Below, one piece after another: positions 11,702-27,207 of a stretch of DNA of 30,136 nucleotides. Each line of letters begins with the position of its first letter. Within the stretch, counting starts at the first letter, position 1. This stretch comes from Thermoanaerobaculia bacterium. GTDB lineage: Bacteria; Acidobacteriota; Thermoanaerobaculia; Multivoradales; JAIOJS01. Both the position numbers and the translations under genes were made by a program. A model generated the notes under the pieces. It saw only the letters and a list, made by a program, of their open reading frames with translations. It did not search any database and was not told where the DNA came from. Location: NCBI GenBank assembly GCA_033722255.1, contig JAWVZJ010000001.1:1-30136 (forward strand). The letters run 5' to 3'.

Positions 11702-11723
11702 GAAAACATCTCTCTTTCCGCGT

Positions 11724-12365
11724 TCAGGGGTCGGTGTCCGACGGGTCGGGTTCCTCGATCCAGGACCGGGCGGCCAAAGCCATGATCTCACGTCCCTCCA
11801 CCAGCCGGGTTCGGTCTCCCTCCCGGAGGAACACGAGCTCCACGTCCCCTTCGACGCCACGCTCCCGAAGAAGCGTCTCCAGCGCCGGTCTCAGGCTCTC
11901 CCGCTCGTAGATCCAGTGTTCCGACGGGAGGCGCCGGGTCCTGGAGCCACGTCCCCCTCGGCCGAAGCGATCCGGAACCGTGATCTGGGCGACCCGCATC
12001 CGATCCGGAGGGCCCAGGAGGATGAGGGCCCCACCCCGGTCCGTCAGCGCCCCCCGGGTCTCCTCGTCTCCGTAGAGGCGGTCCGCCGCCACCACCCGCT
12101 TCGACATGAAGGACTCGATCTCTCCTCGACGGGCCCAGAAGTCCTCGACGAAGGCCTCGAGATCCCCCAGATCCCGGATCCGCCGGGCCTCCCTCCGCTC
12201 CTCCGGCAACAGGAGCCAACGAACCGGCCCCTGGCTCCACCGCTCGCTGACCGTCGAGGCGGGACCGGTGGTCCGGGGACGGCAACCGACCCCCAGGAGG
12301 AGGAGCAGGATCGCTCCCGTCGCCAGCGTTCCCGGTCGGTGCGTCGGCTTCGTGGCTCCGCCCCC
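11724..12365 (-). CDS. Divergent GWxTD-domain-like lipoprotein (start codon unresolved)
   Basis: The open frame extends upstream of the ORF-track TTG (12209) through WSQGPVRWLL to the lipobox ILLLLLGVG|C (Cys 12282-12284). Core motifs FVEDFWARR, RVVAAD, GALTDRG and LILLGPPD. There is no ATG/GTG/TTG in frame before the lipobox. Confidence 0.62.
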   Translation of the reverse strand, partial: GGGATKPTHRPGTLATGAILLLLLGVGCRPRTTGPASTVSERWSQGPVRWLLLPEERREARRIRDLGDLEAFVEDFWARRGEIESFMSKRVVAADRLYGDEETRGALTDRGGALILLGPPDRMRVAQITVPDRFGRGGRGSRTRRLPSEHWIYERESLRPALETLLRERGVEGDVELVFLREGDRTRLVEGREIMALAARSWIEEPDPSDTDP

Positions 12366-12853: not shown

Positions 12854-14128
12854 TCAGCCGGTCTCGTCCCACTCGACCCCGGGACCGAACTCCCACCGAT
12901 GTCGCGGCTCGTACACCCCGGTGGAGGACCGGGAGGCACTGACGGTAAAGGTGAAGACGCCCCGGCGGTAGTCGTAAGGAGCTCCGTCCCGGGCGTGGAC
13001 GGCCAGATCCACTGCATACTCTCCCGGGGCGAGGCGCAGATCGGGACAGTGGATCTGGACCCGGGTGGAGCCCGAGAGGCGCCCCGGGCGGTATCCCTCC
13101 AGCTCGGTGTTGGTACCCCAGACCTCCACCCCCCGGGGAGTCCGGATGGCGATCCCGAACACGAAGTCCTCCAGCTCCTCCTCGGCCTCCACGTCCAGGG
13201 CGAAGACCGCGGAGCTCCCGGTAGACAGGGCATAACCCTCCGCCCCGTCGACGAGAAGCCGAACCTCCCGGAGCCGGGCCCGTCCGGAACCCCAACGATC
13301 CGGCCTCTCTTCGGCTTCGGCTTCGGCTTCCGTCTCGGCCTCCTCCTTCTCCTCCCGGTGCCGCCGGCCCTCGGCCTGGGCCACGGCGTCCCGGTAGGCG
13401 TCCACGACCCGGCGAGGCTCTCCGATCATCCGGCTGAAGCCGTCCTCCATCCAGAGGATCCTGTCGCAGAGATCCTCCACGAGGGGAAGGGTGTGGCTGA
13501 CGAAGAGGAGGGTCTTCCCCCGGGCCAGCATCGCTTCGATCCGGTGTACGCAGCGATGGGCGAAGGCCTCGTCCCCGACGGCCAGCACCTCGTCCACCAG
13601 GAGCACGTCGGGATCGGTATGGACGGCCACGGCAAAGCCCAGACGAACGTACATGCCGGAGGAGTAGTTCTTCACCGGCTCGTCGATGAAGTCCTCGAGA
13701 CCCGAAAAGGCCACGATCTCGTCGAAGCGGTCCGCCACCTCGGACCGGGAGAGGCCGAGGACCGCGCCGTTGATGTACACGTTCTCCCGACCCGAGATCT
13801 CCGGATGGAAACCGGCCCCGAGCTCGATCAGGGCCGAGACCCTGCCGTCCACTGCGATCCGACCCTCCGTGGGCTCCAGGATCCCGGCGATCAGCTTCAG
13901 GAGCGTCGACTTCCCGGAGCCGTTGCTCCCGATCAGGCCGAAGGCCTCCCCCGGAGCGACCGAGAATGACACCTCCCGGACGGCGGGAATCACCTCTTGG
14001 GGCTCCAGGTCCCGGACCAGGCTCCGCTCCAGCAGGGCGCTCTTGAGGGTCCGGAACCGGAAGCCCGAGGCCATTCTCCGATAGAGCTTGGACACTCCCT
14101 CCACCGTGACCACGGCGTCTCCGCTCAT
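12854..14128 (-). CDS. wzt: Polysaccharide ABC exporter ATP-binding protein with C-terminal carbohydrate-binding (Wzt_C) domain
   Basis: ATG 14128 in an ATGA overlap with wzm. Walker A GSNGSGKS, ALIELGAGFHPEISGRENV, YSSGM, LLVDEVLAVGD. C-terminal RWGSGRARL...FVFGIAIRTPRGVEVWGTNT. Confidence 0.92.
   Translation of the reverse strand: MSGDAVVTVEGVSKLYRRMASGFRFRTLKSALLERSLVRDLEPQEVIPAVREVSFSVAPGEAFGLIGSNGSGKSTLLKLIAGILEPTEGRIAVDGRVSALIELGAGFHPEISGRENVYINGAVLGLSRSEVADRFDEIVAFSGLEDFIDEPVKNYSSGMYVRLGFAVAVHTDPDVLLVDEVLAVGDEAFAHRCVHRIEAMLARGKTLLFVSHTLPLVEDLCDRILWMEDGFSRMIGEPRRVVDAYRDAVAQAEGRRHREEKEEAETEAEAEAEERPDRWGSGRARLREVRLLVDGAEGYALSTGSSAVFALDVEAEEELEDFVFGIAIRTPRGVEVWGTNTELEGYRPGRLSGSTRVQIHCPDLRLAPGEYAVDLAVHARDGAPYDYRRGVFTFTVSASRSSTGVYEPRHRWEFGPGVEWDETG
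13309..13330. repeat. In-frame hexamer tandem repeat (CTTCGG x3.7) encoding the EAEAEAE linker in Wzt
   Basis: CTTCGG CTTCGG CTTCGG CTTC, read directly. Confidence 0.75.
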
Positions 14129-14919
14129 GCCGCCTCCACCAGGGTGTTCCGCAATCGAGCGAACACCCAGCAGCCGAATCCCCAGGCGAGGAGGGAGGTG
14201 CCCAGGGCTCGAAGCCAGAGGGAGACCGCAGGCCACACCCCGGCGAAGAGGAGGTCCTGATAGATCTGGATGTAGGGAGTGGCCGGGTTGGCGGCCACGA
14301 TCGCCCAAGCCCACGGCACCTGTCGGATGCTGGAGAGGGGATAGAGGATCGGCGTCAGGAAAAAGCCCAGAGTGAGGAGGTTCTGGAGAAGATCCTGGAC
14401 GTCCTTGAAATGGACGTTCAGGGCGGCCAGGGCGAGGGCGAGACCCGCGACGAAGGGAAGCTGCACCAACATCGCCAGGGGAAGCCCGAAAACGGACCAG
14501 CCACCGACCGGATAGTCGAAGAGCCGAGCTCCCACCAGGGCCACCCCCGCGATCGGGAGGGCCAGGACAAAGTGGACGAGCTGGGCCAGGACCGTCACCA
14601 CGGGAAGGACCTCGGCCGGGAAGACCGCCTTCCGGATCAACCCGGAATTCTCCAGCAGGCTCCCGGTGGCGTCCAGGAGGGAGCCCGAGAGCCAGATCCA
14701 GGGGAACAGGCCGGTGACCAGGAAGACGGAGTAGGGCTCGGCTCCGCCCCAGCGGGCCTGGAAGACGATGTCGAAGACCAGGGTGTAGACCGCCAGGAGG
14801 AGGAGGGGGTTGACCAGGGACCAGAAGAAGCCGAGGAAGGAGCCCCGGTACCGGGCTTTCAGCTCCCGGCCCGTCAGGATGAGGAGGAGGCCCCGGAAGC
14901 GGAGGAGACGAGCTAGCAT
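14125..14919 (-). CDS. wzm: Polysaccharide ABC exporter permease (ABC-2 type)
   Basis: RELKARYRGSFLGFFWSLVNPLLLLAVYTLVF, LIRKAVFPAEVLP, LNVHFKDVQDLL and FFLTPILYP, with multiple TM helices. ATG 14919 chosen; GTG 14964 is possible. Confidence 0.92.
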   Translation of the reverse strand: MLARLLRFRGLLLILTGRELKARYRGSFLGFFWSLVNPLLLLAVYTLVFDIVFQARWGGAEPYSVFLVTGLFPWIWLSGSLLDATGSLLENSGLIRKAVFPAEVLPVVTVLAQLVHFVLALPIAGVALVGARLFDYPVGGWSVFGLPLAMLVQLPFVAGLALALAALNVHFKDVQDLLQNLLTLGFFLTPILYPLSSIRQVPWAWAIVAANPATPYIQIYQDLLFAGVWPAVSLWLRALGTSLLAWGFGCWVFARLRNTLVEAA

Positions 14920-15012
14920 CAGATTGTCGCGGAGAGCCCTACGCCCCGATCCGAGGACGGGCACTCCGTCCGGTCACCGGCACCCGGGTGCTCGAGCTCG
15001 AAGAGGGGCCCC

Positions 15013-16209
15013 TCAGTTCTCGCCCTCGAGGCGACGCTGCCGCTCCTCGATTTCCCGCATCCGTTCCTGGAACGCCCTCTTGATCCTCTCGACGTGCCTC
15101 TCGTAGTTGAGGGGCTCTCCGTCCTTGATGATGTAGACCCGGGGGTACTTCTGGACGTCTCCCTTCTCGTCGAACTGAAGCGTTCCCGTGGCTCCGGGGA
15201 GCGATCGGATGCTCCGCATCCCTCCCCAGAACTCGTTGGGGGTGGCTCCGCCCTCGACCAGAGCCTCGACCAGGACCCGCATCGCGTCGTATCCGTGGGC
15301 CGAATACAGGTCCGGTGTCTCGCCGTACTTCTCCCGATAGGTGTCCACGAACGCCTTGACGTCGCCGCTGGCCTGGGAAAGGTCGAAGATCGTCTGGGTG
15401 AAGATGACCCCGTCCGCCTGGTCTCCCACCTCCCGGACGGCCCTGGAGGTGGCGAAGGCGGAGGTGGTGAGGATCTTGCCCTCGTACCCGTCGCCCCGGA
15501 GCTCCCGGATCATGTGCACGAGGTCCTTCCAGTATGCCGCCAGGTAGACGGCGTCGGGGGCCAGGGTCGTGACGCGATCGACGAGGCCGCTGACGTCGGT
15601 ATTGGACTGGAACTCCAGGGTCTCCAGAACTTCGCCACCGTGCCTCTCGAACTCGGTCTCGAAGACCTCCTGGATGCCCAGTCCGTACGGGGACTCGTTG
15701 GCCAAAATCACCGCGCTCTCGAGCTTCAGGGTGTTCGCGGCGAAGGACCCCATCTTGGTTCCCTCGACGAAGTCCGAGGGGAAGACCCGGAAGAAGTTCC
15801 GGGACACGCCGGAGAGCTCCGGATTCGAAGCCGAAGGCGAGACCAGGACCCGATCCTCCTCGTCGGCAACCTCCACCATCTCCAGGGCCTCGGCGCTGGT
15901 GACGCCACCGATCGCAGCCAGGGCGCCCTCGTCGTAGAGATCTTCCAGGAGCTCGGCCGCCTTTTCGGGATCGGTCTCGGAGTCGACGATCTCGAGCTCG
16001 ATCTCCCGCTCGAGGCGAGGATCCTCCCGGGCCTGCTCATAGGCGATCTCGATGCCCCGCTTGATCGCGGTGGCGTAGGCCTGCACGGGGCCCGTCAGGG
16101 GCAATACGGCCCCGAACGTGACCGGCTTCGGCGGTCCACAGGCCCCCAGGAAAAGGCCCAGGCCCAGGCCCACGCACAAGACGGCAGTCCAGATCGATCG
16201 ACGTTTCAT
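15013..16209 (-). CDS. Type I periplasmic-binding-fold lipoprotein (LivK/LivJ-like substrate-binding protein)
   Basis: Lipobox LFLGA|C. FGAVLPLTG, AAIGGVTS, LVSPSAS, FFRVFPSD and AHGYDAM. Charged helical C-terminal tail. Confidence 0.85.
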   Translation of the reverse strand: MKRRSIWTAVLCVGLGLGLFLGACGPPKPVTFGAVLPLTGPVQAYATAIKRGIEIAYEQAREDPRLEREIELEIVDSETDPEKAAELLEDLYDEGALAAIGGVTSAEALEMVEVADEEDRVLVSPSASNPELSGVSRNFFRVFPSDFVEGTKMGSFAANTLKLESAVILANESPYGLGIQEVFETEFERHGGEVLETLEFQSNTDVSGLVDRVTTLAPDAVYLAAYWKDLVHMIRELRGDGYEGKILTTSAFATSRAVREVGDQADGVIFTQTIFDLSQASGDVKAFVDTYREKYGETPDLYSAHGYDAMRVLVEALVEGGATPNEFWGGMRSIRSLPGATGTLQFDEKGDVQKYPRVYIIKDGEPLNYERHVERIKRAFQERMREIEERQRRLEGEN

Positions 16210-16248
16210 CTCCGAGTCCTTTCGCGGAACGAGGCTTCTCCGCCCCTC

Positions 16249-16278
16249 CTTCTAGCCCAGCCGGCGACGGAGTGTCAA
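16249..16278 (-). promoter_or_regulatory. Possible sigma70 promoter for the binding-protein gene, wzm and wzt
   Basis: Minus strand TTGACA (16278-16273), 18-nt spacer, TAGAAG (16254-16249). Confidence 0.5.
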
Positions 16279-16491
16279 GAACATCCGACCCTCCGGGAAT
16301 CGGGGCTCCGAGCCCCTCGCCCGGGCCCGTGTCGGCGGCCCCGGCGGCAGATCCGAGCCACTGTGGACGAGCCGAGCGGTGACGAAGCCACCGAAGCCGG
16401 CCGGGTGGGTCTCGTCAAACACGTCCCCCAGTGTACCGAATCCTCCCCGCCCGCACCGGGCTCGGCGTCCGGAGCTCGGTCGGAGGGACTC

Positions 16492-18651
16492 TCACGGGAG
16501 CTGGAAATACCGGGGAGAAGGCCCGAGGGTCACGTCCCGACCTTCCGGGATCGAGAGCTCCTCACCGTCCCGTCCCCAGGTCCGTTGCGGCGATTCCGGC
16601 AGGGTCGCTCGACCGGACCCCTCCCGGGACCAGCCCACGAAGATCTGTCTCCCCTCGTCCCGAAAGCGGTAGAGATAGAGTCCCTCCGGGGTGTGGTCGG
16701 GCCCCACGAAGGTGGCCCCCTCGAGCCGGGCCAGCGTGGCGAGGGCCCGATAGGCGGGGCGCACCCGGAGGCCGTCCTCACCTGGGGCGAGGAGACCGTA
16801 GCCTCGGGCCACGAGCTGCCACCAATAGACCCGTTCCACGTGGCCGGTTCCCAGGGCCAGGAGGTAGTAGCGGACCAGGTAGTCCGCCGCCGTCTCCTCG
16901 TCCACCGCGACGTGCCGGCCCGCCGGGGCGTGGGGACCTTCCCACAAGGGCCAGTTCACCTCGGTGATCCAGCTCCGTTCGGCCGCGCACCGGCCGGAGA
17001 TCGCCAATGCCTTGGCCAGCAGGACCTTGTCCACCGTGTCGAATCCGGCCTGGGTGTTCTCCGGCGCTCCCCGACGATCGACGTAGAGGAGGCTGGCCAG
17101 GGCGTCGAACCGGAGGTGGCTCCCGGGCCAGTTCAACACCGCGGCGGTGTAGTGAGGCTCGAAGTCGATCACCGCCGGACCCAGGATCTGCACGCCCCGG
17201 TGCCGCCGCAGAACCTCGCTGGCGGTCTCGGCCAAGCGCTGGTACTCCTCCAGGTTCCAGATCCCCCACTTGCTCCGGTTGATCGCCTGTCCCACCTGGA
17301 AGTGCCGACCATAGGGAGCGAACCGCTCGGCCAGCTCCTCGACGGCGCCCCTCCAACGTCGGAGATCCCGGACCAGCTCCCTCCTCTGGGGGAGAGAGTA
17401 GGCCAGATCGAAGCCCCGTCCGTGGAGCTCCCGGGCCAGGGACTCCTCGGCGCCGTGCTCCTCCGCCCAGGGATGGAGCCGGAGCAGCACCCGGCGGATC
17501 CCGAGCTCCTCCAAGGCCCGGATCAGGCTCTCCGGGTCCTCCGGCCGGGGTCGCACGCAGACTCCGAGACCGTCGAAGACCACGGACTCGGCGTGGAGCT
17601 CGGACTGGAGCCGCCGGTAGGCGCTCCAGAGCCCCGGGGCGGCGCCCAGGATGCCCCGGAGCGCCTTCAAGTGGATCCGGACGTCCCCCAGCCGGACCAG
17701 GAGCTTGTCCAGACGGCCGGCGTGTTGGTGCGGCTGATCCGAAAGCGGGTCCCAGACCGCCCGGTCTCTCCGGGACGCCCCGGAGGGTGGCCGGGGAAGA
17801 TGAGGATAGGCCTTCCGGGGCACCAGGAGGTCCCGGACCTTGCCCAGTCTCCCACGGATCCGACGCTTCCATCGGTGTCGGCCGTGAAACGAGCGGTGGA
17901 AGAGCCGGTACAGGATCCGGGCCCGGCGGGGCGGTTCCCCCCGGAAGTAGGCCGACAGGAGGAGGTTCTGATGCTCCGGGCGCTCCAGGGGCATCCGGCA
18001 GAGATCCCTCAACCTCCGGGAGAGACCGACCCGAGGAAGACGCCGGGCCCGGTTCAGATCCACGAGGAAGGGGTCCGGCGGCCGCTTCTCGAGATCCAAC
18101 AGCACATTCCCCGAGGAGTAGTCCCGGAACCAGAAGCCCCCCTCGTGGAGGGCCAGGGCCAGATCCGCCAGGACGCTCAGGAGCTCCACGGGATCCAGGT
18201 CCGGAAAGCTCTCGTCCTCCGTCCCCGCATTCAGGGCCCGGACGATGGACCGGGCCTCGACCAGCCCCTCCAGGTACCGGGAGACGTAGAACGCCGGACC
18301 GTCGATCCGATCGGTGTCGATCCAGACGAGAGGGTCCGGGGTGGGCAGCCCCTCCTCCTCCAGGGCCAGGGCCACTCGCCAGCTCCGCTCCGCCTTGCTG
18401 CCCCGGAGCCGCCGGTCGACTCGACGACGCAGCGTCTCGTGGCGGAACTGCTTGACCACCACACTCTCCACACCCCGGCCGGGAACCTCCACCTCCGTGA
18501 CCCAGAGATAGTTCCTTCCCCAGTGGAGGGTCTCCCGTGCTCGACTCGGATCCGCCAGCAGCGGGAGAGCTTCGGGAACCATCTGCCTCCACGGCCCTTC
18601 CCGGACCTCCCCCCGGAAACCGGGACTCCGGAACTCCAGGGAGTCGGTCAC
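16492..18651 (-). CDS. Fusion of an LPS/Kdo-kinase-like (WaaP/InaA family) domain and a clan GH-A-like TIM-barrel domain
   Basis: N-half: VVVKQF, SKAERSW...LPTPDPL, FRDYSSGNVLL, LVDLNRA. C-half: FQVGQAINR, ILGPAV, FDALASLLY, WITEVNW, VERVYWWQL, RPAYRAL. GTG start 1 nt after the rng stop. No signal peptide. Confidence 0.8.
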   Translation of the reverse strand: MTDSLEFRSPGFRGEVREGPWRQMVPEALPLLADPSRARETLHWGRNYLWVTEVEVPGRGVESVVVKQFRHETLRRRVDRRLRGSKAERSWRVALALEEEGLPTPDPLVWIDTDRIDGPAFYVSRYLEGLVEARSIVRALNAGTEDESFPDLDPVELLSVLADLALALHEGGFWFRDYSSGNVLLDLEKRPPDPFLVDLNRARRLPRVGLSRRLRDLCRMPLERPEHQNLLLSAYFRGEPPRRARILYRLFHRSFHGRHRWKRRIRGRLGKVRDLLVPRKAYPHLPRPPSGASRRDRAVWDPLSDQPHQHAGRLDKLLVRLGDVRIHLKALRGILGAAPGLWSAYRRLQSELHAESVVFDGLGVCVRPRPEDPESLIRALEELGIRRVLLRLHPWAEEHGAEESLARELHGRGFDLAYSLPQRRELVRDLRRWRGAVEELAERFAPYGRHFQVGQAINRSKWGIWNLEEYQRLAETASEVLRRHRGVQILGPAVIDFEPHYTAAVLNWPGSHLRFDALASLLYVDRRGAPENTQAGFDTVDKVLLAKALAISGRCAAERSWITEVNWPLWEGPHAPAGRHVAVDEETAADYLVRYYLLALGTGHVERVYWWQLVARGYGLLAPGEDGLRVRPAYRALATLARLEGATFVGPDHTPEGLYLYRFRDEGRQIFVGWSREGSGRATLPESPQRTWGRDGEELSIPEGRDVTLGPSPRYFQLP

Positions 18652-18652
18652 C

Positions 18653-20134
18653 TCAACGGACCTCGAGGACCTCGAAGCGCTCCCGGTGCAGCTCCGGGTC
18701 GCTCCGAACCACGATCGACAGACCCAGGGTCCGCTCCAACTCCTCCACGACCGCCTTCTCCTCCCCCCGGAGGGCGTTCGCCAGATCCGGGTGGGCCCGG
18801 AGCATCAGCTCCCGGGCTCCCCGGGGCGCTCCGTGGTCCAGGACCTCCTCCCGGAGCTCCATGGCAATCGTGGTCAGCGCCTTCACCCGACCGTCGCCCT
18901 GGCAGTACGGACAGGGAGAGGTGAGAAGCCGCTGCAGACTCGGCCGACTCCTCTTCCGCGTCATCTCCACCAGGCCGAACTCCGAAATCGACAGGACCCT
19001 CGAGCGGGCCCGATCCTTCCGGACCTCCTCCTCCAGGGCGGCGAAGACCTCCTCGCGGCTCTCCGCCTCCTCCATGTCGATCAGATCGAGGACGACGATA
19101 CCTCCGAGGTTCCGGAGGCGAATCTGTCGGACGGCTTCCCGGACCGCCTCCAGGTTCGTGCGCAGAATCGTGCGCTCCAGGTCTTCGCTCCCCACGAACC
19201 GGCCGGTGTTCACGTCGATGGCCACCAGGGCCTCCGTCGGCTGGATGACGAGATACCCGCCAGAGCGCAACCAGACCTTGGACCGGAGGGCGGCCTCGAT
19301 CTCCTCCTCCACGTCGGCCACCTCGAAGAGGGGACGTCGTCCCTCGTGGCGCCGGACCTTCCGGGCCAGGGAGGGGTCGACCTCCTGCAGGAACTCCGAG
19401 ACCCGCCGGTGGATCTCTTCACCCTCCACTCGGAGAGCCTCGAACCCGGGACCGAAGCGGTCTCGGACCACCCGCAAGGCCACGTCCAGATCCTCGTGGA
19501 CCAGGGCTGGGGCGCCCGCTTCCCGGATCCGATCCCGGATCCGATCCCAGCGACTCCTCAGCGACCCGGCGTCCCTCTCGAAGGACTCGGGGCGCTCCCC
19601 CTCTCCGGCCGTCCTCACGATCCACCCCCCCTCCGGGAGCCCGGCCACGATCTCCCGGAGGCGCTCCCGCTCCTCCGGATCCTCGATCCGGCGGGAGACC
19701 CCGAGGTGGGCGCCGTCGGGAACGAAGACGAGGTACCGGCCGGGCAGCGTGATCCGGGGGGTCACCCGGGCACCTTTGGAGGGCACCGGATCCTTTACCA
19801 CCTGCACCACGATCTCCTCTCCGGGCTTCAGTAGATCGTCGATGGCCTTCTCTGCTTCCCCCGGACCCTCCTGCGTCTCGTCCTCCGCCCCGGATCCCGA
19901 GCTCCGATCCCGGAGATCGTCCACGTGGAGAAAGGCGTCCCTCTCCAGGCCGATGTCCACGAAGGCGGCCTCCATTCCGGGCAGGACCCGGTTGACCCGG
20001 CCCTTGTAGAGGTTCCCCACCACTCCCCGGTCCCGGCGCCGCTCCAGGAACAGCTCCACCAGCCGGCCCTCCTCCAGGAGGGCCACCCGGGTCCGATGGG
20101 GATCTTGCTGGATCAGGAGCTGCGGCGCCGACAC
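18653..20134 (-). CDS. rng: Rne/Rng family ribonuclease (RNase G-like)
   Basis: GNLYKGRVNRVLPGMEAAFVDIG, TLPGRYLVF, LRSGGYLVIQPTEALVAIDVNTG, RQIRLRNLGGIVVLDLIDM, FGLVEMTRKR, CPYCQGDG. Confidence 0.95.
   Translation of the reverse strand: MSAPQLLIQQDPHRTRVALLEEGRLVELFLERRRDRGVVGNLYKGRVNRVLPGMEAAFVDIGLERDAFLHVDDLRDRSSGSGAEDETQEGPGEAEKAIDDLLKPGEEIVVQVVKDPVPSKGARVTPRITLPGRYLVFVPDGAHLGVSRRIEDPEERERLREIVAGLPEGGWIVRTAGEGERPESFERDAGSLRSRWDRIRDRIREAGAPALVHEDLDVALRVVRDRFGPGFEALRVEGEEIHRRVSEFLQEVDPSLARKVRRHEGRRPLFEVADVEEEIEAALRSKVWLRSGGYLVIQPTEALVAIDVNTGRFVGSEDLERTILRTNLEAVREAVRQIRLRNLGGIVVLDLIDMEEAESREEVFAALEEEVRKDRARSRVLSISEFGLVEMTRKRSRPSLQRLLTSPCPYCQGDGRVKALTTIAMELREEVLDHGAPRGARELMLRAHPDLANALRGEEKAVVEELERTLGLSIVVRSDPELHRERFEVLEVR
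19522..19548. repeat. In-frame 12-bp tandem duplication in rng (DRIR-DRIR)
   Basis: CCCGGATCCGAT x2 plus CCC, read directly. Confidence 0.7.
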
Positions 20135-20140
20135 GCGCCG

Positions 20141-20146
20141 ATTGTA
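20141..20146 (-). promoter_or_regulatory. -10 element 6 nt upstream of the rng start codon (possible leaderless promoter)
   Basis: Minus strand TACAAT-CGGCGC-GTG(20134). No SD and no recognisable -35. Confidence 0.45.
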
Positions 20147-20179
20147 GTCCCCCCCTGGTCCGCCCGCGCCCCCCGGTCG

Positions 20180-21331
20180 CTATCGATTCACGTACCGCCG
20201 GGCATCCACGTTGAGGGCCAGCCCCGTGGCGGCGAAGCAGAAGAAGGTGAACGACCCGCCGTAGGAGAGGAAGGGCAGGGGGATGCCGGTGATCGGCACC
20301 AGACCCACGACCATCGCCGTGTTGTAGAGGATGTGGAACGCCAGGATCGATCCCAGGGACACGATGAGGAGGATTCCCAACCGATCCCGCGCCCGGCCCG
20401 CCACCTCCGCCAGGCCCCAGAGAAACAACCCGAAGAGGGTCAGGACGAGGGCCACTCCGGCAAATCCCCATTCCTCGGCGAGGACCGCGAAGACGAAATC
20501 GGTGTGCCGGGCCGGGAGGAACCGGAGCTGGCTCTGAGTCCCCTGCATGTATCCCTGTCCCAGGAGACCTCCGGACCCCACGGCGATCTTGCTCTGCCGA
20601 ACCTGGTAGCCGGCCCCCAGGGGGTCCCGTTCTGGCTGGAGGAAGGTGAGGATCCGATCCTTCTGGTACCCCCGGAGCCCGATGTCGGTGTTCCAGGCAG
20701 CCCCTCCCAGAATCAGGGCCAGAACGCCGACCGCCAACAAAACTCGCCATCGGACCCCAGCGACCAGCAGGGCTCCCAGGAGCATGGGAACGAACATGGC
20801 GGCGCTTCCGTAGTCCGGCTGAAGCGCCACCAGAGTGACCGGTAGAACCACGATCGACCCGGCCACGCTGACCTCCCGGAGCCGGAGCCGGCTCCGGGGG
20901 ATCCCGGATAGATACTGAGCCAGCAGAACGGCGGTCGTGAGCTTCGCGAGCTCCGCCGGCTGAACCCCGAATCCGCCGATGGCGAGCCAGCTCCGGGCTC
21001 CTCCCCGAAGCTCACCGGCCACCAGGGTGAGGAGCAGGAGCACGACCCCGAGCCCGTAGATCGCCAGGGCATGGGTTCCGAGCCGGCGATAGTCCACCAG
21101 GAAGGCCGCCAGGAAGATCCCCAGCCCCAGGACGACCCAGAGGGCCTGACGGGGCAGGTAGTCGACCGAGAGCTCCGCCGAGGCGCTGTGGATCGTCACC
21201 AGACCCACGACCGCCAGGGCCAGGGCTTGCAGCAGGAGGCTCCACCGGGCGTTGCCCAGGGCCTGCAGGCCGGTCCGGCCCTCAACCGCGAACGGGGCGG
21301 AGATCGGTCCGCTTTTCGAGAAACTCTTCAT
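20180..21331 (-). CDS. rodA: Rod shape-determining protein RodA (SEDS family)
   Basis: GARSWLAIGGFGVQPAELAK, LQPDYGSA, GYQVRQSKIAVGSGG, LPARHTDFVFAVLAEEWGF, PITGIPLPFLSYGGS. Start uncertain (see findings). Confidence 0.95.
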   Translation of the reverse strand: MKSFSKSGPISAPFAVEGRTGLQALGNARWSLLLQALALAVVGLVTIHSASAELSVDYLPRQALWVVLGLGIFLAAFLVDYRRLGTHALAIYGLGVVLLLLTLVAGELRGGARSWLAIGGFGVQPAELAKLTTAVLLAQYLSGIPRSRLRLREVSVAGSIVVLPVTLVALQPDYGSAAMFVPMLLGALLVAGVRWRVLLAVGVLALILGGAAWNTDIGLRGYQKDRILTFLQPERDPLGAGYQVRQSKIAVGSGGLLGQGYMQGTQSQLRFLPARHTDFVFAVLAEEWGFAGVALVLTLFGLFLWGLAEVAGRARDRLGILLIVSLGSILAFHILYNTAMVVGLVPITGIPLPFLSYGGSFTFFCFAATGLALNVDARRYVNR

Positions 21332-23075
21332 AAACGGCTCGGGCGACGGGGGCCGCGGTCCGGGAGCCGGACCCCCCGTGTTCGACGAATACGACCACGA
21401 CCAGCTCCGGATCGTGGGCCGGCGCGTAGGAGGCGAACCAGGCGTGGTCCCGCTGCTCGAAGGGAAGGTCCTCGGACTCGATCCGGGCCTCCTGGGAGAC
21501 GACCTGCACCGTCCCCGTCTTGCCGGCGATCTCGAGGCCGGGCAACCGGGCCGTTCGTCCGGTTCCCTCGGACACGACCCGGCGAATGCCCTCCTGAGCG
21601 ACGTCCCACCAGCGAGGATCGATTCCCTCGATCCGGCTCCCGCCGCCGGGAGTACCGGCGACGATCCGGGGGATCGGGCGGTGACCCTCGGTGGCCAGCG
21701 CGGCCATCATCACCGCCACTTGGACCGGTGTCACCAGCAGGGAGCTCTGGCCGATCGCCACCGAGATCGTCTCCCCGGGATACCAGCGGTGACCCCGGAC
21801 CCGCCGGCTCCACTCGGGGCCCGGGACCAACCCCGCCCGTTCGCCGGCGAGATCGATCCCCGTGGCCTCCCCGAATCCGAACCGTCGGGCATACTCGCCG
21901 ATTCGCTCGATTCCGAGCTCCTTCCCCAGCGTGTAGAAATAGATGTCGCACGATTCCTCCAGGGCCTCGACCAGGTCGACCCAGCCGTGTCCCCCTCGCT
22001 TCCAACATCGGAAGCGGTGATCGTAGAACCGGGTGCTCCCGGAGCAGAAGACGCTGCGGTCGGGAGTGACGACCCCCTCCTGGAGACCGGCCAGGGCCAT
22101 CAGGGGTTTGAACACCGAGCCCGGCGAGAAGACGTTCTGGATCGCTCGGTTCTGAAGCGGCTGAAACGGGGCCGCGACCAGGCTTCGCCACTGCCGCGGA
22201 TCCAGACGTCGGGCGAAGAGGTTCGGATCGTAGGAGGGTCGGGACAGCAGCACCCGGACCGCTCCCGTCCCGGGCTCGAGGGCGACGACGGCTCCCACCC
22301 GGCCCTCCATGGCCCGTCCGGCCGCCTGTTGCAGATCGAGGTCCAGGGCCAGCCGGAGATCTCCTCCGGGTCGGGCCTCCCGGCGTCCGTACTCCTCCAC
22401 CGGTCGACCCCGGGAATCCACCACCACCACGCGGCGACCGTCCCGGCCCCGAAGCCGCCGTTCGTAGCGACGCTCGATCCCTCGACGGCCCACCAGCTCT
22501 CCGCGCCGATACTCTCCCTCCCGGAGGAGCTGATCGGGACCGATCTCCCCGATGTAACCCAGGACGTGGGCGGCCTGCTCCCGGTGACGGTAGAGTCGGA
22601 CCTGCTCCACCTCGATCTCGAACTCCGGATGCTTCAGGTCCGCCAGCTCGAGGCGAGCCACCTGGGCCAGGGAGAGATCCTCCGCGATCAGCACCGGATT
22701 CACCGGGTCGTTGCGCCTCTGCCGCCGGTAGTTGGCCCGGAGGCTCTCCGCCGGAGCTCCCAGGACCTCGGACGCGAAGGCGAAGGTGCTCTCGGGATCC
22801 TCCATGATCGCCGGGTCGACCCGGAGGGTGTAGCTGGGAACGTTCTCGACCAGAGGGCGTCCCTGCGCGTCGAAGATGATCCCCCGAGGGGCGGGGATCG
22901 GTAGCCTCCGGAGACGGTTGTGCTCCGCCGCCTCCCGGTACTCGGAGCCGTTCACGCCTTGGACCACCCAGTAGCTGGCCGCGATCATCGCCAACAGACC
23001 CACTCCAGCCCGGGCCAGGAACCGGACGCGGCGGATCAGGGCTTCCCGGTGCTCTCGAGAACGTAGGACTTCCAT
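21282..23075 (-). CDS. mrdA: Penicillin-binding protein 2
   Basis: IPAPRGIIFD, SPGSVFKP (SxxK), SCDIYFY (SxD), IAGKTGT (KTG), HAWFASYAP. Confidence 0.95.
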   Translation of the reverse strand: MEVLRSREHREALIRRVRFLARAGVGLLAMIAASYWVVQGVNGSEYREAAEHNRLRRLPIPAPRGIIFDAQGRPLVENVPSYTLRVDPAIMEDPESTFAFASEVLGAPAESLRANYRRQRRNDPVNPVLIAEDLSLAQVARLELADLKHPEFEIEVEQVRLYRHREQAAHVLGYIGEIGPDQLLREGEYRRGELVGRRGIERRYERRLRGRDGRRVVVVDSRGRPVEEYGRREARPGGDLRLALDLDLQQAAGRAMEGRVGAVVALEPGTGAVRVLLSRPSYDPNLFARRLDPRQWRSLVAAPFQPLQNRAIQNVFSPGSVFKPLMALAGLQEGVVTPDRSVFCSGSTRFYDHRFRCWKRGGHGWVDLVEALEESCDIYFYTLGKELGIERIGEYARRFGFGEATGIDLAGERAGLVPGPEWSRRVRGHRWYPGETISVAIGQSSLLVTPVQVAVMMAALATEGHRPIPRIVAGTPGGGSRIEGIDPRWWDVAQEGIRRVVSEGTGRTARLPGLEIAGKTGTVQVVSQEARIESEDLPFEQRDHAWFASYAPAHDPELVVVVFVEHGGSGSRTAAPVARAVYEEFLEKRTDLRPVRG

Positions 23076-23123
23076 CGCTTCTCTTCCTTCAACGACTTCC
23101 GGCGGTCCGTTGATTCCCCCCGC

Positions 23124-23639
23124 TCATCGCAGCCGCAGTCTCCGCATCCTCTTCTCCTTCCACCGTTTCCAGCGGGCTTCGAAACGCCGTCCCAGTGCCA
23201 GCAAGAGGGCCCCGACGAGGGCCGTGAGCCCGATTCGGACCAGAACCAAGCCTGGCTGGGGAAGCTCGGGGCGAGAGACCAGGAGGAGGGCCAGGAGCAC
23301 GAGGATCCCCTGCTGGAGCGCCGAGGCCAGGGCGAACAGGAGCACCCGCACCCGTTGCCGACCCATGACGATCCGCCCGGCCAGCACCGCCACCGTGAAA
23401 GCCACGAAGGTCCCGGCGAAGCCGTGAAGGCCCCAGAGCGACCCACTCAGGCCGTCCAGGAGGAGCCCCGCGACGAGACCGACGAGCTGGGAGGAGACCG
23501 GACCGTGTCGAAAGGCGAAGAGGACCACGACGACCAGGAGGGGATCGAAGAGGGCCGGGAACCGGGGCCAGAGGGCGACACCGACGAGGTAGGCGACGAC
23601 GGCACACAGGAAGGCGGCGGTCCAGCGGAACACGGTCAC
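23124..23639 (-). CDS. mreD: Rod shape-determining protein MreD
   Basis: Hydrophobic multi-TM protein (GLVAGLLLDGLSG...LWGLHG) between mreC and mrdA. GTGA overlap with mreC. Confidence 0.85.
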   Translation of the reverse strand: MTVFRWTAAFLCAVVAYLVGVALWPRFPALFDPLLVVVVLFAFRHGPVSSQLVGLVAGLLLDGLSGSLWGLHGFAGTFVAFTVAVLAGRIVMGRQRVRVLLFALASALQQGILVLLALLLVSRPELPQPGLVLVRIGLTALVGALLLALGRRFEARWKRWKEKRMRRLRLR

Positions 23640-24472
23640 GGCAGCTCCGGCTCTCCCAGGTCCGTCGGCAACGGCTCCTTGGGCAGCAGATAGACCGTGT
23701 CCACGACGCCGAAATCCACCCGGGGCAGAACCTCGATCCGATGGAACAGCCTGGGGCCGGGCTCCACCGAGATCACCACCCCCGTGGCGATCCCCTGGGG
23801 ATAGACTCGATCGATCCCCGCCGTCACCACCTCGTCGCCGCGACGCACGTCGGCGGAGAGGGGCACGTACTCCAGAGTGAGGGGATCGTTCCCCTGGCCC
23901 CGCAGGATCCCCTGTCGACGGGTCCGGGCGATCATGGCCCCCACGGCGGAGGACCGATCGGTGATCAACTGCACCCTGGCGTAGGGCTCGGCCACGGTCA
24001 CCACCCGACCCACGAGGCCTCGGGGAGCCACGACCGGTTGATTGGCCTGCACCCCCCGGGGGCCGACCCGGATCACGAAGTTCCGGAGCCAGGACCGGTA
24101 GTCCGCGAACACCACGTCGGCGACCTGGAGGCGGCGATCCCGGGCTCGGCCGTACTCGAGAGCCTCGGCGAGGCGATCCCGCTCCACCTCCACCCCTTCC
24201 AGTCGCAACAGCTCGCCCTCGAGGGCCTCCAACCTCTGCCGAAGGCGTGCGTTCTCCTCCTGGAGGCTCTCCCGGGTTCTCCAGGCCCGGGCCGTTGCCC
24301 GTGCCGCCTCCTCGACCCCGGCCACCGCCTCGGCCAGGGGTGCCACGACCCGAAGAACGGCCCGGGCCATCGGAGGAGCGTTCGGCCCCCGGCGGGGCGT
24401 CTGCCGGGTCAGGAGCACCAGCTGTCCCAGGAGGAGGATCAGGAGGAGCCAGCCGGCTCTCCGGTGCATCAC
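23636..24472 (-). CDS. mreC: Rod shape-determining protein MreC
   Basis: N-terminal TM, coiled coil LQEENARLR, GLVGRVV, LITDRSSAVGA, GDEVVTAGIDRVYPQGI. Start is GTG 24472 or ATG 24469. Confidence 0.92.
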   Translation of the reverse strand: MMHRRAGWLLLILLLGQLVLLTRQTPRRGPNAPPMARAVLRVVAPLAEAVAGVEEAARATARAWRTRESLQEENARLRQRLEALEGELLRLEGVEVERDRLAEALEYGRARDRRLQVADVVFADYRSWLRNFVIRVGPRGVQANQPVVAPRGLVGRVVTVAEPYARVQLITDRSSAVGAMIARTRRQGILRGQGNDPLTLEYVPLSADVRRGDEVVTAGIDRVYPQGIATGVVISVEPGPRLFHRIEVLPRVDFGVVDTVYLLPKEPLPTDLGEPELP

Positions 24473-24497
24473 GTCGGGAAATCCGGCGCCTCGGGCC

Positions 24498-25523
24498 TCA
24501 CACGATGGAGACCTTTCGGAGGAGGTCGATGTCCCCCAGGACCCGTCCAGCCCCCAGCACCACCGAGGCCAGGGGATCCTCGGCCAAGACCACCGGCAGC
24601 CCGGTCTCCTCCCGTAGGCGCTGGTCGAGGTTCCGCAGCAGGGCTCCTCCCCCGGAGAGCACGATGCCCCGGTCGATGATGTCCGCCGAGAGCTCCGGCG
24701 GCGTCCGTTCCAGGGCCTGCCGCACCGCCTCCACGATCGTGGAGACCGGCTCGATCAGCGCCTCCCGGATCTCCTCGTCGGAGATCACCAGGTTCTTGGG
24801 GACTCCCTCCACGAGATCGCGTCCCTTGATCTCCATGGTGAGGGCGTCCTTCAGCGGATGGGCAGATCCGATCTCGCACTTGATCAGCTCGGCGGAACGC
24901 TCTCCGATCAACAGGTTGTACTTGCGCTTCAGGTGCTGGATCACGGCGTCGTCCATCTCGTTGCCCGCTACCCGGACGGAGCGGCTGTAGACGGTTCCGG
25001 CCAGGGAAATGACGGCCACGTCGGTGGTGCCGCCCCCGATGTCGACGATCATGTTCCCCGAGGGCTCGGTGATCGGCAGACCGGCGCCGATGGCGGCCAT
25101 CATCGCCTGTTCGACGAGGAACACCTCCGAAGCCCCCGCCCGCTCCGCCGAGTCCCGGACCGCTCGCTTCTCGACCTGGGTGATCTCGCTGGGAACTCCG
25201 ATGACGATCCGGGGCCGGACCAGGCGCCGTCCTCCGTGGGCCTTCTTGATGAAGTGCTCGAGCATCTTCTCCGTGACCTCGAAATCGGCGATCACCCCGT
25301 CCTTCATGGGGCGGATCGGCTCGATGTTCCCGGGGGTGCGCCCGAGCATCTCCTTGGCCTCGGCCCCGACCGCCTCGATCTTGTTCGTCACCTTGTTGAC
25401 CACGACGACAGAGGGCTCCCGAACCACGATGCCCTTGGTCCGGGCATAGACCAGGGTGTTCGCCGTCCCCAGGTCGATGGCCAGGTCGTTCGAGATGTAG
25501 CGGAGAATCGAGCCTAGGGGCAT
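24498..25523 (-). CDS. mreB: Rod shape-determining protein MreB
   Basis: DLAIDLGTANTLVY, RPMKDGVIADF, MIVDIGGGTTDVAVISL, ERTPPELSADI, LSGGGALL. Confidence 0.98.
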   Translation of the reverse strand: MPLGSILRYISNDLAIDLGTANTLVYARTKGIVVREPSVVVVNKVTNKIEAVGAEAKEMLGRTPGNIEPIRPMKDGVIADFEVTEKMLEHFIKKAHGGRRLVRPRIVIGVPSEITQVEKRAVRDSAERAGASEVFLVEQAMMAAIGAGLPITEPSGNMIVDIGGGTTDVAVISLAGTVYSRSVRVAGNEMDDAVIQHLKRKYNLLIGERSAELIKCEIGSAHPLKDALTMEIKGRDLVEGVPKNLVISDEEIREALIEPVSTIVEAVRQALERTPPELSADIIDRGIVLSGGGALLRNLDQRLREETGLPVVLAEDPLASVVLGAGRVLGDIDLLRKVSIV

Positions 25524-27062: not shown

Positions 27063-27088
27063 GCTCGTCGAATTCCTCCGGGAGGCAC

Positions 27089-27097
27089 AATATACCA
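27089..27097 (-). promoter_or_regulatory. Extended -10 promoter for the FecR-domain gene
   Basis: Minus strand TGG-TATATT, 26 nt upstream of GTG 27062. Confidence 0.5.
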
Positions 27098-27118
27098 GAT
27101 CCGGGGATCCCCGGCGGG

Positions 27119-27147
27119 TTGCCGCCCGGAGAGGCGCCTGGTACAGT
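27119..27147 (+). promoter_or_regulatory. Sigma70-type promoter for ppiD
   Basis: TTGCCG (27119-27124), 17-nt spacer ending in TGG, TACAGT (27142-27147). Confidence 0.6.
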
Positions 27148-27207
27148 TTTCCTCTCTGTTCCGGGGGAATCCCGCCCTTCCTCCCATCTGTTTCGGAAAG
27201 GACTCCC

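What the first reader, a model, noticed from the sequence alone, without database searches (positions are those of the whole stretch)
16492..18651. LPS-kinase-like domain fused to a glycoside-hydrolase-fold domain, coupled to rng behind the elongasome operon
Seen: one 719-aa ORF with a complete kinase motif set (VKQF Lys, RDYSSGN catalytic loop, DLN metal-binding). A very basic helix (RARILYRLFHRSFHGRHRWKRRIRGRLGKVR) follows, then a TIM-barrel-like GH domain and a beta-rich tail. There is no signal peptide, and the start is 1 nt after the rng stop. Established: WaaP/KdkA/InaA-type kinases phosphorylate LPS sugars and are usually single-domain. Inference: a cytoplasmic, membrane-associated bifunctional glycan-modifying enzyme. 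I know of no characterised protein with this architecture.
Basis: partly seen in the sequence, partly recalled or inferred. Interest (0 to 1): 0.75.

Follow-up and report, generated by a model that had tools for sequence, protein, structure and literature searches.

The report
LPS-core kinase fused to GH39-like barrel
This gene encodes a WaaP/KdkA-type sugar kinase joined to a PslG-like glycosidase-fold domain that has lost the usual acid/base residue. The same two parts sit together in lipopolysaccharide inner-core gene clusters of several phyla, so it probably marks an undescribed way of modifying the outer-membrane sugar core.

Summary
The 719-aa ORF is real but lies on the minus strand (16492-18651). 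Its GTG start is 1 nt after the rng stop, making it the last gene of mreB-mreC-mreD-pbp2-rodA-rng.

- **N half:** a Kdo/WaaP-superfamily kinase fold. K67, D177, N182 and D198 are 100% conserved in about 340 relatives.
- **C half:** a (beta/alpha)8 barrel plus beta-sandwich, closest to GH39 (5jvk Z 31, PslG Z 29). It has no Pfam or NCBIfam match.
- **Catalytic residues:** the clan GH-A nucleophile is kept (E564, 99%). The N-E-P acid/base is gone, with 0% acidic residues at positions 453-465. Invariant N458-R459-x-K461-W462 takes its place.

The family is large and uncharacterised. It occurs in Acidobacteriota, Gamma- and Betaproteobacteria, Lentisphaerae, Campylobacterota and Aminicenantia. The two parts occur fused in both orders, fused with a GT4, as adjacent genes, or with the barrel alone.

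Outside Thermoanaerobaculia the genes sit among LPS genes (waaA-lpxK-lpxL, GT9, WaaL, lptFG). The rng linkage is lineage-specific (64 of 75 loci).

Best reading: a cytoplasmic-face LPS inner-core modifying enzyme. The chemistry of the barrel is unknown.

The scan had already met this fusion on other DNA (e1-940713), with the same verdict.

The parts
16492..18651 (-). Whole gene, 719 codons plus stop. It is the last gene of the mre-pbp2-rodA-rng operon.
   Evidence: ORF list and translation. More than 1200 full-length homologues. Single copy in its own genome.
17929..18651 (-). N-terminal Kdo/WaaP-superfamily kinase domain (aa 1-241). Catalytic residues: K67 (18451-18453), D177 (18121-18123), N182, D198 (18058-18060).
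   Evidence: Pfam PF06293 gives a weak hit (E 3e-4 to 1e-3, just under the cut-off). Foldseek matches WaaP 6dfl (E 4.5e-9) and AFDB WaaP/KdkA (TM by hit 0.56-0.70). Alignment with E. coli WaaP and WaaY. 100% conservation.
17824..17928 (-). Very basic long helix (aa 242-276). It is the counterpart of the basic C-terminal helix of WaaP and is a likely membrane- or LPS-binding element.
   Evidence: AF2 models a helix at 242-276. Alignment with WaaP.
17716..17823 (-). Linker (aa 277-312) carrying the invariant W300-D301-x-x-S-D-Q306-P motif. Stand-alone barrel proteins start with this same motif.
   Evidence: W300 99%, D301 96%, Q306 100%. N-termini of stand-alone homologues. Low pLDDT at 301-305.
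17599..17715 (-). Amphipathic helix (aa 313-351) with a conserved Pro. In most stand-alone homologues it is a strongly hydrophobic, Pro-containing helix and so a probable membrane anchor.
   Evidence: AF2 helices at 313-322 and 324-351. Hydrophobicity survey: 80 of 106 stand-alone forms score above 1.6, against 1 of 215 fused forms.
16792..17598 (-). (beta/alpha)8 barrel of clan GH-A type (aa 352-620). Nucleophile candidate E564 (16960-16962) lies in W-I-T-E-V-N-W-P. The strand-4 region F451...G463 lacks any acidic residue, and invariant N458-R459 (17275-17280) sits there.
   Evidence: Z 31.1 to 5jvk and Z 29 to PslG. Foldseek E 1e-15 to PslG. hhalign against acidobacterial GH39 gives probability 90% and E 1.8e-7. 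Conservation statistics.
16495..16791 (-). C-terminal beta-sandwich (aa 621-719), as in GH39, GH30 and GH79 enzymes.
   Evidence: AF2 models strands from 621 to 718. Structural alignments run to residues 717-719.
18653..20134 (-). rng (RNase G), immediately upstream with a 1-nt gap.
   Evidence: Pfam RNase_E_G E 9e-96. Junction sequence. rng lies directly upstream in 64 of 75 related loci.
20180..25523 (-). Elongasome genes upstream in the same orientation: rodA 20180-21331, PBP2 21282-23075, mreD 23124-23639, mreC 23636-24472, mreB 24498-25523.
   Evidence: Pfam. The same order is seen in L001 and L002 and in 46-54 of 60-71 loci.

Best explanation
The gene encodes a cytoplasmic, membrane-peripheral, two-module enzyme of lipopolysaccharide inner-core assembly.

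**Module 1 (aa 1-276)** is an active ATP-dependent sugar kinase of the Kdo/WaaP superfamily. It forms a subfamily of its own, neither WaaP nor KdkA. It phosphorylates an inner-core sugar (heptose or Kdo) of lipid A-core at the inner face of the cytoplasmic membrane.

**Module 2 (aa ~295-719)** is a GH39/PslG-like clan GH-A barrel with a beta-sandwich. It keeps the strand-7 nucleophile Glu (E564). It has replaced the strand-4 acid/base Glu with a non-acidic segment carrying invariant Asn-Arg-x-Lys-Trp, and its barrel mouth is lined with invariant Arg/Lys.

I infer that module 2 is catalytic and handles an anionic or phosphate-activated glycoside on the same lipid-linked substrate. Candidates are a phospho-sugar, a Kdo-type sugar, or a nucleotide- or polyprenyl-phosphate-linked sugar whose leaving group needs no acid catalysis. 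The two modules would then carry out consecutive steps on one molecule.

**Shown:** the architecture, the motif conservation, the fold, the loss of the acid/base, the recurrent fusion and adjacency of the two modules, and the LPS gene contexts.

**Inferred:** the substrate, the direction of the barrel's chemistry (trimming versus transfer), and the membrane association.

In Thermoanaerobaculia the gene has been placed behind mreBCD-pbp2-rodA-rng. This probably co-expresses it with envelope growth. It does not show that the gene is part of peptidoglycan synthesis.
For: **Kinase**
- Fold matches to WaaP and KdkA.
- The catalytic Lys/Asp/Asn/Asp align with E. coli WaaP and WaaY and are 100% conserved.
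- The family's kinases hit the NCBIfam KdkA and WaaP models, weakly.

**Barrel**
- Z 31 and 29 to GH39 enzymes.
- hhalign to GH39 gives probability 90%. E564 sits on the GH39 nucleophile, and the GH39 W-N-E-P motif falls on G-Q-A-I-N-R.
- R391, N458, R459, K461, D496, E498, Y523, D525, R526, R527, E531, E564 and R594 are each 97-100% conserved, with no acidic residue at positions 453-465.

**Functional coupling of the two modules**
- Fused kinase-barrel forms in more than 1200 proteins near the target and more than 1100 near a proteobacterial member.
- The reverse order, barrel then kinase, in P0167.
- A GT4-kinase-barrel triple fusion, P0180.
- Adjacent separate genes in six acidobacterial genomes and in a Cocleimonas contig, in the opposite order.

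**LPS contexts**
- GT4-kinase-barrel-methyltransferase, divergent from GT9-WaaL-PHP-PfkB.
- WaaA-LpxK-LpxL-...-GT9-WaaL-barrel.
- GT9-WaaL-barrel.
- LptF-LptG-fusion.
- GT9, Sulfatase-family protein, barrel, kinase, HAD, LptFG, LpxL.
- These mirror the E. coli waaC-waaL and waaG-waaP adjacencies.

**Own genome.** It has WaaA and GT9 genes. Its other PF06293 hits are equally weak and lie in open frames of 420-1610 aa.

**Location.** No signal peptide or TM segment, and a kinase needs ATP, so the protein is cytoplasmic.
Against: - No experiment exists for any member of the family.
- The window protein's own PF06293 score is just below Pfam's cut-off.
- It is far below the equivalog cut-offs for WaaP and KdkA.
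- In this genome the neighbours are elongasome genes, rng and a Wzm/Wzt exporter, not core glycosyltransferases.
- Loss of the acid/base Glu is also what a non-catalytic binding domain would show.
- The exact register of strand 4 is uncertain by two residues. hhalign puts A456 at the Glu position, whereas motif reading puts R459 there.
- I could not inspect model coordinates, so 'Arg/Lys-lined mouth' rests on strand topology and not on measured distances.
- Most stand-alone homologues have a hydrophobic helix that could be a true transmembrane segment placing their barrel in the periplasm, like PslG (PMC6813494).
- Some contexts are uninformative.
Confidence: 0.6

Rival explanations
1. The barrel is a pseudo-glycosidase. 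It would be a non-catalytic carbohydrate-binding module that docks the kinase (or, when stand-alone, other core enzymes) onto the anionic inner core. Only the kinase would do chemistry.
For: The canonical acid/base Glu is absent in all of about 485 members. There is no sequence match to any GH family model. Many invariant Arg/Lys residues would suit binding of phosphates or Kdo carboxylates.
Against: The nucleophile Glu (99%), the strand-6 Tyr, the strand-2 Arg and further invariant acidic residues (D496, E498, D525, E531) are kept over 27-100% identity across phyla. This is more than binding usually demands. Stand-alone barrels sit in GT9-WaaL operons with no adjacent kinase.
Confidence: 0.2
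2. The protein is a WbdD-like terminator or chain-length regulator for the O-polysaccharide exported by the nearby Wzm/Wzt transporter. The Wzt_C domain of that transporter reads a terminal cap. The kinase would phosphorylate the non-reducing end and the barrel would trim the chain.
For: Wzm and Wzt (with Wzt_C) lie 1.5-3.6 kb downstream on the same strand. They recur within 9 kb downstream in 15 of 61 (Wzm) and 16 of 55 (Wzt) related loci. In G247 a methyltransferase follows the kinase-barrel pair, which recalls the kinase plus methyltransferase of WbdD (my own knowledge).
Against: About three quarters of related loci have no Wzm/Wzt nearby (L001 and L002). A 283-nt gap and a solute-binding-protein gene separate them here. 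No O-antigen glycosyltransferases are adjacent. The contexts in other phyla are lipid A/core genes. The target has no methyltransferase domain or long coiled coil.
Confidence: 0.08
3. The protein serves peptidoglycan growth or recycling with the elongasome. For example, it could be a cytoplasmic glycosidase plus anomeric sugar kinase acting on muropeptides or lipid-linked PG precursors.
For: The position as last gene of mreBCD-pbp2-rodA-rng is conserved, with rng directly upstream in 64 of 75 loci and a 1-nt gap here. There is a weak secondary Pfam hit to the APH phosphotransferase family.
Against: The synteny is confined to Thermoanaerobaculia and their kin. Elsewhere the genes sit with LPS genes, not PG genes. 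rng itself is a common passenger behind mre genes (my own knowledge of E. coli mreBCD-yhdE-rng). The kinase's nearest families are KdkA and WaaP.
Confidence: 0.06

Closest known systems
WaaP (RfaP), LPS core heptose(I) kinase (E. coli b3630; P. aeruginosa PDB 6DFL), and KdkA, Kdo kinase. Both belong to Pfam PF06293.
   Same: Protein-kinase-like fold. Shared catalytic Lys, Asp and Asp, and a basic C-terminal helix. A cytoplasmic enzyme of LPS inner-core assembly. The gene lies next to a GT4, as in waaG-waaP.
   Different: Only 18-19% identity to E. coli WaaY and WaaP. Scores are far below the NCBIfam equivalog cut-offs for both WaaP and KdkA, and slightly nearer KdkA. The alpha-C Glu of WaaP aligns with Ser/Thr. 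It carries a roughly 430-aa GH-like module that neither WaaP nor KdkA has.
PslG, the GH39 endoglycosidase of the Pseudomonas aeruginosa Psl machinery (PDB 5bx9, 4zn2, 9g17), and the GH39 enzyme of Bacteroides cellulosilyticus (5jvk).
   Same: (beta/alpha)8 barrel plus C-terminal beta-sandwich, with Z 29-31, rmsd 2.7-3.0 A and about 21% identity. The nucleophile Glu sits on strand 7. The enzyme is membrane-associated and encoded inside a glycan-biosynthesis gene set. PslG is inner-membrane associated and needed for Psl synthesis (PMC6813494).
   Different: PslG uses E165 as acid/base and E276 as nucleophile (PMC6813494). Here the acid/base is absent. There is no PF01229 match. PslG's catalytic domain is periplasmic, whereas the fused protein has no signal peptide or TM segment and is tied to an ATP-dependent kinase.
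WbdD, the kinase-methyltransferase terminator of E. coli O9a O-antigen (Wzm/Wzt pathway).
   Same: A cytoplasmic, membrane-associated multi-domain protein with a kinase-fold domain acting on a lipid-linked glycan. A Wzt with a cap-reading Wzt_C domain is nearby in this window.
   Different: No methyltransferase domain or coiled-coil ruler. The Wzm/Wzt neighbourhood appears in only about a quarter of related loci. The comparison with WbdD itself rests on my own knowledge and was not tested with a WbdD sequence.

Membership tests
Kdo/WaaP LPS-kinase superfamily (Pfam PF06293) | Protein-kinase-like bilobal fold | tested here: met
   Foldseek matches WaaP 6dfl_A with E 4.5e-9. AFDB WaaP and KdkA give TM by hit 0.56-0.70 over residues 3-273.
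Kdo/WaaP LPS-kinase superfamily (Pfam PF06293) | Catalytic Lys (strand 3), catalytic-loop Asp/Asn, and metal-binding Asp | tested here: met
   K67, D177 and D198 align with E. coli WaaP and WaaY. K67, D177, N182 and D198 are 100% conserved in 338-346 relatives.
Kdo/WaaP LPS-kinase superfamily (Pfam PF06293) | Score above Pfam's gathering cut-off (21.3 bits) | tested here: inconclusive
   The window protein scores 18.8-20.7 bits. The genome scan gives 21.2, or 21.6 with neighbours. Nearly all homologues carry a precomputed PF06293 hit, and split kinases score 41.9 bits.
WaaP equivalog (NCBIfam NF011703) / KdkA equivalog (NF002475) | Score above the curated equivalog cut-off (170 / 142 bits) | tested here: not met
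   The window protein has no hit at E up to 1. Family members score 15-33 bits against WaaP and 23-44 bits against KdkA. E. coli WaaP scores 465 bits.
Kdo/WaaP LPS-kinase superfamily | ATP-dependent phosphorylation of an LPS inner-core sugar | not testable with these tools
   Only gene context supports it.
Clan GH-A glycoside hydrolases (nearest: GH39) | (beta/alpha)8 barrel, with a C-terminal beta-sandwich in GH39, GH30 and GH79 | tested here: met
   Z 31.1 to 5jvk, Z 29.2 to PslG, and Z 24-25 to GH30 and GH79, with 330-355 residues aligned. Foldseek E 1e-15.
Clan GH-A glycoside hydrolases (nearest: GH39) | Nucleophile Glu at the end of strand 7 | tested here: met
   E564 aligns with the GH39 nucleophile in hhalign and is 99% conserved.
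Clan GH-A glycoside hydrolases (nearest: GH39) | Acid/base Glu in the Asn-Glu-Pro motif at the end of strand 4 | tested here: not met
   The GH39 W-N-E-P motif aligns with G-Q-A-I-N-R. Acidic residues are at 0% for positions 453-465 in about 488 members.
Clan GH-A glycoside hydrolases (nearest: GH39) | Sequence membership of a described GH family model (e.g. PF01229) | tested here: not met
   No Pfam or NCBIfam hit for residues 290-719 at E up to 10 and up to 1 respectively. A profile search of PDB sequences finds only a partial 5jvk hit, E 1e-4.
WbdD-type O-antigen terminators | Methyltransferase domain and coiled-coil ruler beside the kinase, encoded in an O-PS cluster | tested here: not met
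   There is no methyltransferase Pfam hit, and the model has no long coiled coil beyond the helix at 242-276. No glycosyltransferase-family hit among the window ORFs scanned. Wzm/Wzt lie nearby in about 27% of loci.

The most novel reading that the evidence does not exclude
The GH39-like barrel may not be a hydrolase at all. It could be a glycosidase-fold transglycosylase that uses a phosphate-activated donor, such as ADP-heptose, CMP-Kdo or a polyprenyl-phosphate sugar. The donor's leaving group would be held by the invariant Arg/Lys that replaced the acid/base Glu. E564 would form the covalent intermediate and pass the sugar to the inner core. The barrel would then be a non-Leloir-fold 'glycosyltransferase' working in tandem with the kinase. 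A related variant is that it removes the outer Kdo while the kinase phosphorylates the freed position, swapping a Kdo for a phosphate.
Probability: 0.15. Interest if true: 0.85.

Novelty: new variant of a known kind. Interest (0 to 1): 0.6.

Why it matters
Inner-core phosphorylation governs outer-membrane stability and resistance to cationic peptides. So far it is known only from single-domain kinases (WaaP, WaaY, KdkA) in a few model proteobacteria.

Here a kinase of that superfamily is tied to a glycosidase-fold domain that has no family assignment and an altered catalytic centre. The tie takes several forms: fusion in both orders, triple fusion with a GT4, or operon adjacency. The pair occurs in thousands of environmental proteins across several phyla.

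If the barrel is catalytic, it would define a new CAZy-type family with an acid/base-less mechanism and a new step in LPS core assembly. If it is a binding module, it would be a new way of targeting a core kinase. Either outcome is testable with standard LPS biochemistry.

Tried and rejected
- **Plus-strand reading of the given coordinates.** It is an open frame but the antisense of the real gene.
- **Sequence searches of the C half.** Pfam, NCBIfam and PDB sequences gave no family. A profile search of PDB gave only a partial GH39 hit.
- **NCBIfam on stand-alone barrels** that NCBI names 'glycosyl hydrolase' gave no model.
- **Literature searches.** The search for the fusion found nothing relevant. 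A second search served only to confirm PslG's catalytic residues.
- **Expression evidence.** Only DNA runs of a tidal-flat metagenome hold the sequence, so co-transcription with rng could not be checked and read laying was not used.
- **Promoter and terminator scan of 15900-20400.** No promoter-like site was found. The only terminator-like site outside the coding sequence is a weak hairpin about 190 nt downstream of the stop.
- **One Sulfurimonas homologue** was not on record for a context look-up.
- **Longer 'fusions' with RibF, TsaE or an RNase G fragment** (P0209, P0203, P0168) look like neighbouring genes merged by gene calling and were not used.
- **Residue-level structural superposition on PslG** was not possible because model coordinates are not exposed. 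The acid/base conclusion therefore rests on profile-profile alignment and conservation.
- **Genome G024 (unpublished)** was only one of the genomes counted in the surveys.
Full report
**1. What is in the sequence**

The coordinates 16492-18651 hold a 719-codon ORF on the minus strand. The plus-strand frame is also open, but it is the antisense of a high-GC gene.

The GTG start at 18651 lies one nucleotide after the stop of the upstream gene, with GAGG about 10 nt before it. Homologues align from residues 1-7, so the start is about right.

Upstream on the same strand lie rng, rodA, PBP2, mreD, mreC and mreB. Downstream there is a 283-nt gap. After it come a Peripla_BP_6 protein, Wzm, and Wzt with a Wzt_C domain.

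The window comes from a tidal-flat metagenome bin. No RNA data exist for it. Named relatives place it in Thermoanaerobaculia, phylum Acidobacteriota.

**2. The kinase half**

Pfam gives only a borderline PF06293 (Kdo/WaaP) hit. The AlphaFold model (pLDDT 87, pTM 0.70) gives clearer evidence:
- It matches WaaP (6dfl, E 4.5e-9).
- It matches AFDB models of WaaP and KdkA (TM by hit 0.56-0.70).

An alignment with E. coli WaaP and WaaY, taken from the annotated K-12 waa cluster, places K67, D177 and D198 on their catalytic Lys, Asp and Asp. In an hmmalign of 507 family proteins, K67, H169, D177, N182 and D198 are 100% conserved.

The position of WaaP's alpha-C Glu is Ser/Thr in this family.

NCBIfam equivalog models for KdkA and WaaP are hit only weakly, far below their cut-offs, with KdkA slightly ahead. 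The module is therefore a subfamily of its own.

The very basic helix 242-276 corresponds to WaaP's basic C-terminal helix.

**3. The C half**

Pfam and NCBIfam find nothing, and phmmer against PDB sequences gives no credible match. Structure comparison is unambiguous:
- VIA-align gives Z 31.1 to the GH39 enzyme 5jvk.
- It gives Z 29 to PslG, with about 350 residues aligned, rmsd about 3 A and 21% identity.
- GH30 and GH79 follow at Z 24-25.
- Every alignment spans both the barrel and the C-terminal beta-sandwich.
- The ESM Atlas search gave the same families.

I built a GH39 alignment from eleven acidobacterial genomes and compared it with the C-domain family by hhalign. The result was probability 90% and E 1.8e-7.
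- E564, in W-I-T-E-V-N-W-P, falls on the GH39 nucleophile.
- The GH39 W-N-E-P acid/base motif falls on G-Q-A-I-N-R, which has no Glu.

Across about 488 members there is 0% Asp/Glu at every position from 453 to 465. N458, R459, K461 and W462 are 99-100% conserved.

Other near-invariant residues lie at or just after predicted barrel strand ends: R391, Q422, R424, D496, E498, Y523, D525, R526, R527 and E531. R594 is equally conserved but lies in the helix after strand 7.

PslG uses E165 and E276 and is an inner-membrane-associated part of the Psl synthesis machinery (PMC6813494). The present domain keeps only the second of these two glutamates.

**4. How widespread, and with what partners**

Size of the family:
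- More than 1200 full-length relatives were found near the target.
- An exhaustive search of 50%-identity representatives found 1554 hits, 263 of them below 1e-30. Fused proteins of 700-750 aa go down to 27% identity, and there are stand-alone barrels of 410-470 aa.

Taxonomic range:
- A proteobacterial member has more than 1100 relatives of its own. Named sources include Gammaproteobacteria (Pseudomonadales, Candidatus Pseudothioglobus), Burkholderiales/Betaproteobacteria and Lentisphaerae.
- Stand-alone barrels occur in Sulfurimonas, Sulfuricurvum, Aminicenantia and Cocleimonas.

Among 301 Acidobacteriota genomes:
- the fusion is present in all sampled genomes of the window's own order;
- six genomes carry kinase and barrel as adjacent separate genes;
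- four carry the barrel alone.

Other arrangements:
- One protein has the reverse order, barrel then kinase.
- One is a GT4-kinase-barrel triple fusion.

Independent fusions in both orders, together with operon adjacency in both orders, argue strongly that the two modules work together.

**5. Gene context**

In 80 species-level loci of Thermoanaerobaculia and their kin:
- rng lies directly upstream in 64 of 75;
- rodA, PBP2 and mreB lie further upstream in 54 of 71, 50 of 65 and 46 of 60;
- Wzm and Wzt lie within 9 kb downstream in only 15 of 61 and 16 of 55.

Elsewhere the neighbours are LPS genes:
- LptF-LptG-fusion.
- GT9-WaaL-barrel.
- GT4-kinase-barrel-methyltransferase, divergent from GT9-WaaL-PHP-PfkB.
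- WaaA-LpxK-LpxL-...-GT9-WaaL-barrel.
- GT9, Sulfatase-family protein, barrel, kinase, HAD, LptFG and LpxL in Cocleimonas.

These recall the E. coli waaC-waaL and waaG-waaP adjacencies.

The window's genome has WaaA and GT9 genes elsewhere. Its other PF06293 hits are equally weak and lie in open frames of 420-1610 aa.

Some contexts say nothing either way.

**6. Location**

The target has no signal peptide or TM segment. With an ATP-dependent kinase on the same chain, the whole protein must be cytoplasmic.

The helix between the conserved W-D-x-x-S-D-Q-P motif and the barrel differs between forms:
- It is amphipathic in 214 of 215 fused proteins.
- It is strongly hydrophobic, with a central Pro, in 80 of 106 stand-alone proteins.

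I read this helix as an interfacial or re-entrant membrane anchor. A true transmembrane topology for the stand-alone forms cannot be excluded.

**7. Mechanism**

What is shown:
- an intact kinase centre;
- a GH39-like barrel with a nucleophile but no acid/base;
- invariant basic residues at or near the barrel's strand ends;
- obligate partnership of the two modules;
- LPS inner-core neighbourhoods.

What I infer: both modules act on lipid A-core at the inner face of the membrane.
- The kinase phosphorylates heptose or Kdo.
- The barrel processes an anionic or phosphate-activated glycoside, because a good anionic leaving group makes an acid catalyst dispensable.
- Whether the barrel trims or transfers is open.

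Rivals:
- a non-catalytic docking module;
- a WbdD-like O-antigen terminator for the neighbouring Wzm/Wzt;
- a peptidoglycan-related role suggested by the operon.

**8. Novelty**

The parts belong to known superfamilies. However, the barrel is an unassigned family with an altered active site, and I found no described kinase-barrel pairing. I rate it a new variant of a known kind.

The scan met the same fusion earlier on other genomes. One follow-up (e1-940713) reached the same verdict. I saw that note only after my own analysis.

Noticed in passing
window 12854-16209 (-): A Peripla_BP_6 solute-binding protein, Wzm, and Wzt with a cap-reading Wzt_C domain form a unit. No glycosyltransferase-family hit appeared among the ORFs scanned in the window. 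The same trio recurs downstream of the fusion in L004 and in about 10-16 of roughly 60 related loci.
   Followed up: partly
P0180 (1113 aa) and P0167 (745 aa), from the representative search: P0180 is a GT4 glycosyltransferase + kinase + barrel triple fusion. P0167 has the reverse domain order, barrel then kinase. Both come from single short metagenome contigs.
   Followed up: partly
Stand-alone homologues such as P0331, P0351, P0369 (Sulfurimonas/Sulfuricurvum): They begin with the W-D-x-x-S-D-Q-P motif. A basic stretch and a roughly 20-residue hydrophobic helix with a central Pro follow. This could be a re-entrant anchor or a transmembrane segment, and the topology is undetermined.
   Followed up: partly
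window 25647-29151: A FecR + Glucodextran_B-domain protein (25647-27368, -) lies directly upstream of mreB. Next to it is a divergent SurA-like PPIase (27025-29151, +). The same SurA and FecR neighbours precede mreB in L001 and L002.
   Followed up: no
L031:12166-13089 (+): In a Holophagae MAG that lacks rng upstream, a DUF374 (PF04028) gene starts within the last codons of the fusion gene.
   Followed up: no
window 20180-23075 (-): The ORFs called for PBP2 (21282-23075) and rodA (20180-21331) overlap by 50 nt. A similar overlap is annotated in L001 and L002.
   Followed up: no
G000:C124:6850-7167 (-), locus L095: The same genome has a separate protein that passes the Pfam GH39 cut-off (E 6.5e-11). 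Ordinary GH39-type sequences therefore coexist with the acid/base-less barrel.
   Followed up: no
window 4828-7095 (+), 9216-9761 (-), 9977-11860 (-): Other envelope or division genes lie in the window: a TPR + SLT lytic transglycosylase, a DivIVA-domain protein and an M49 peptidase.
   Followed up: no
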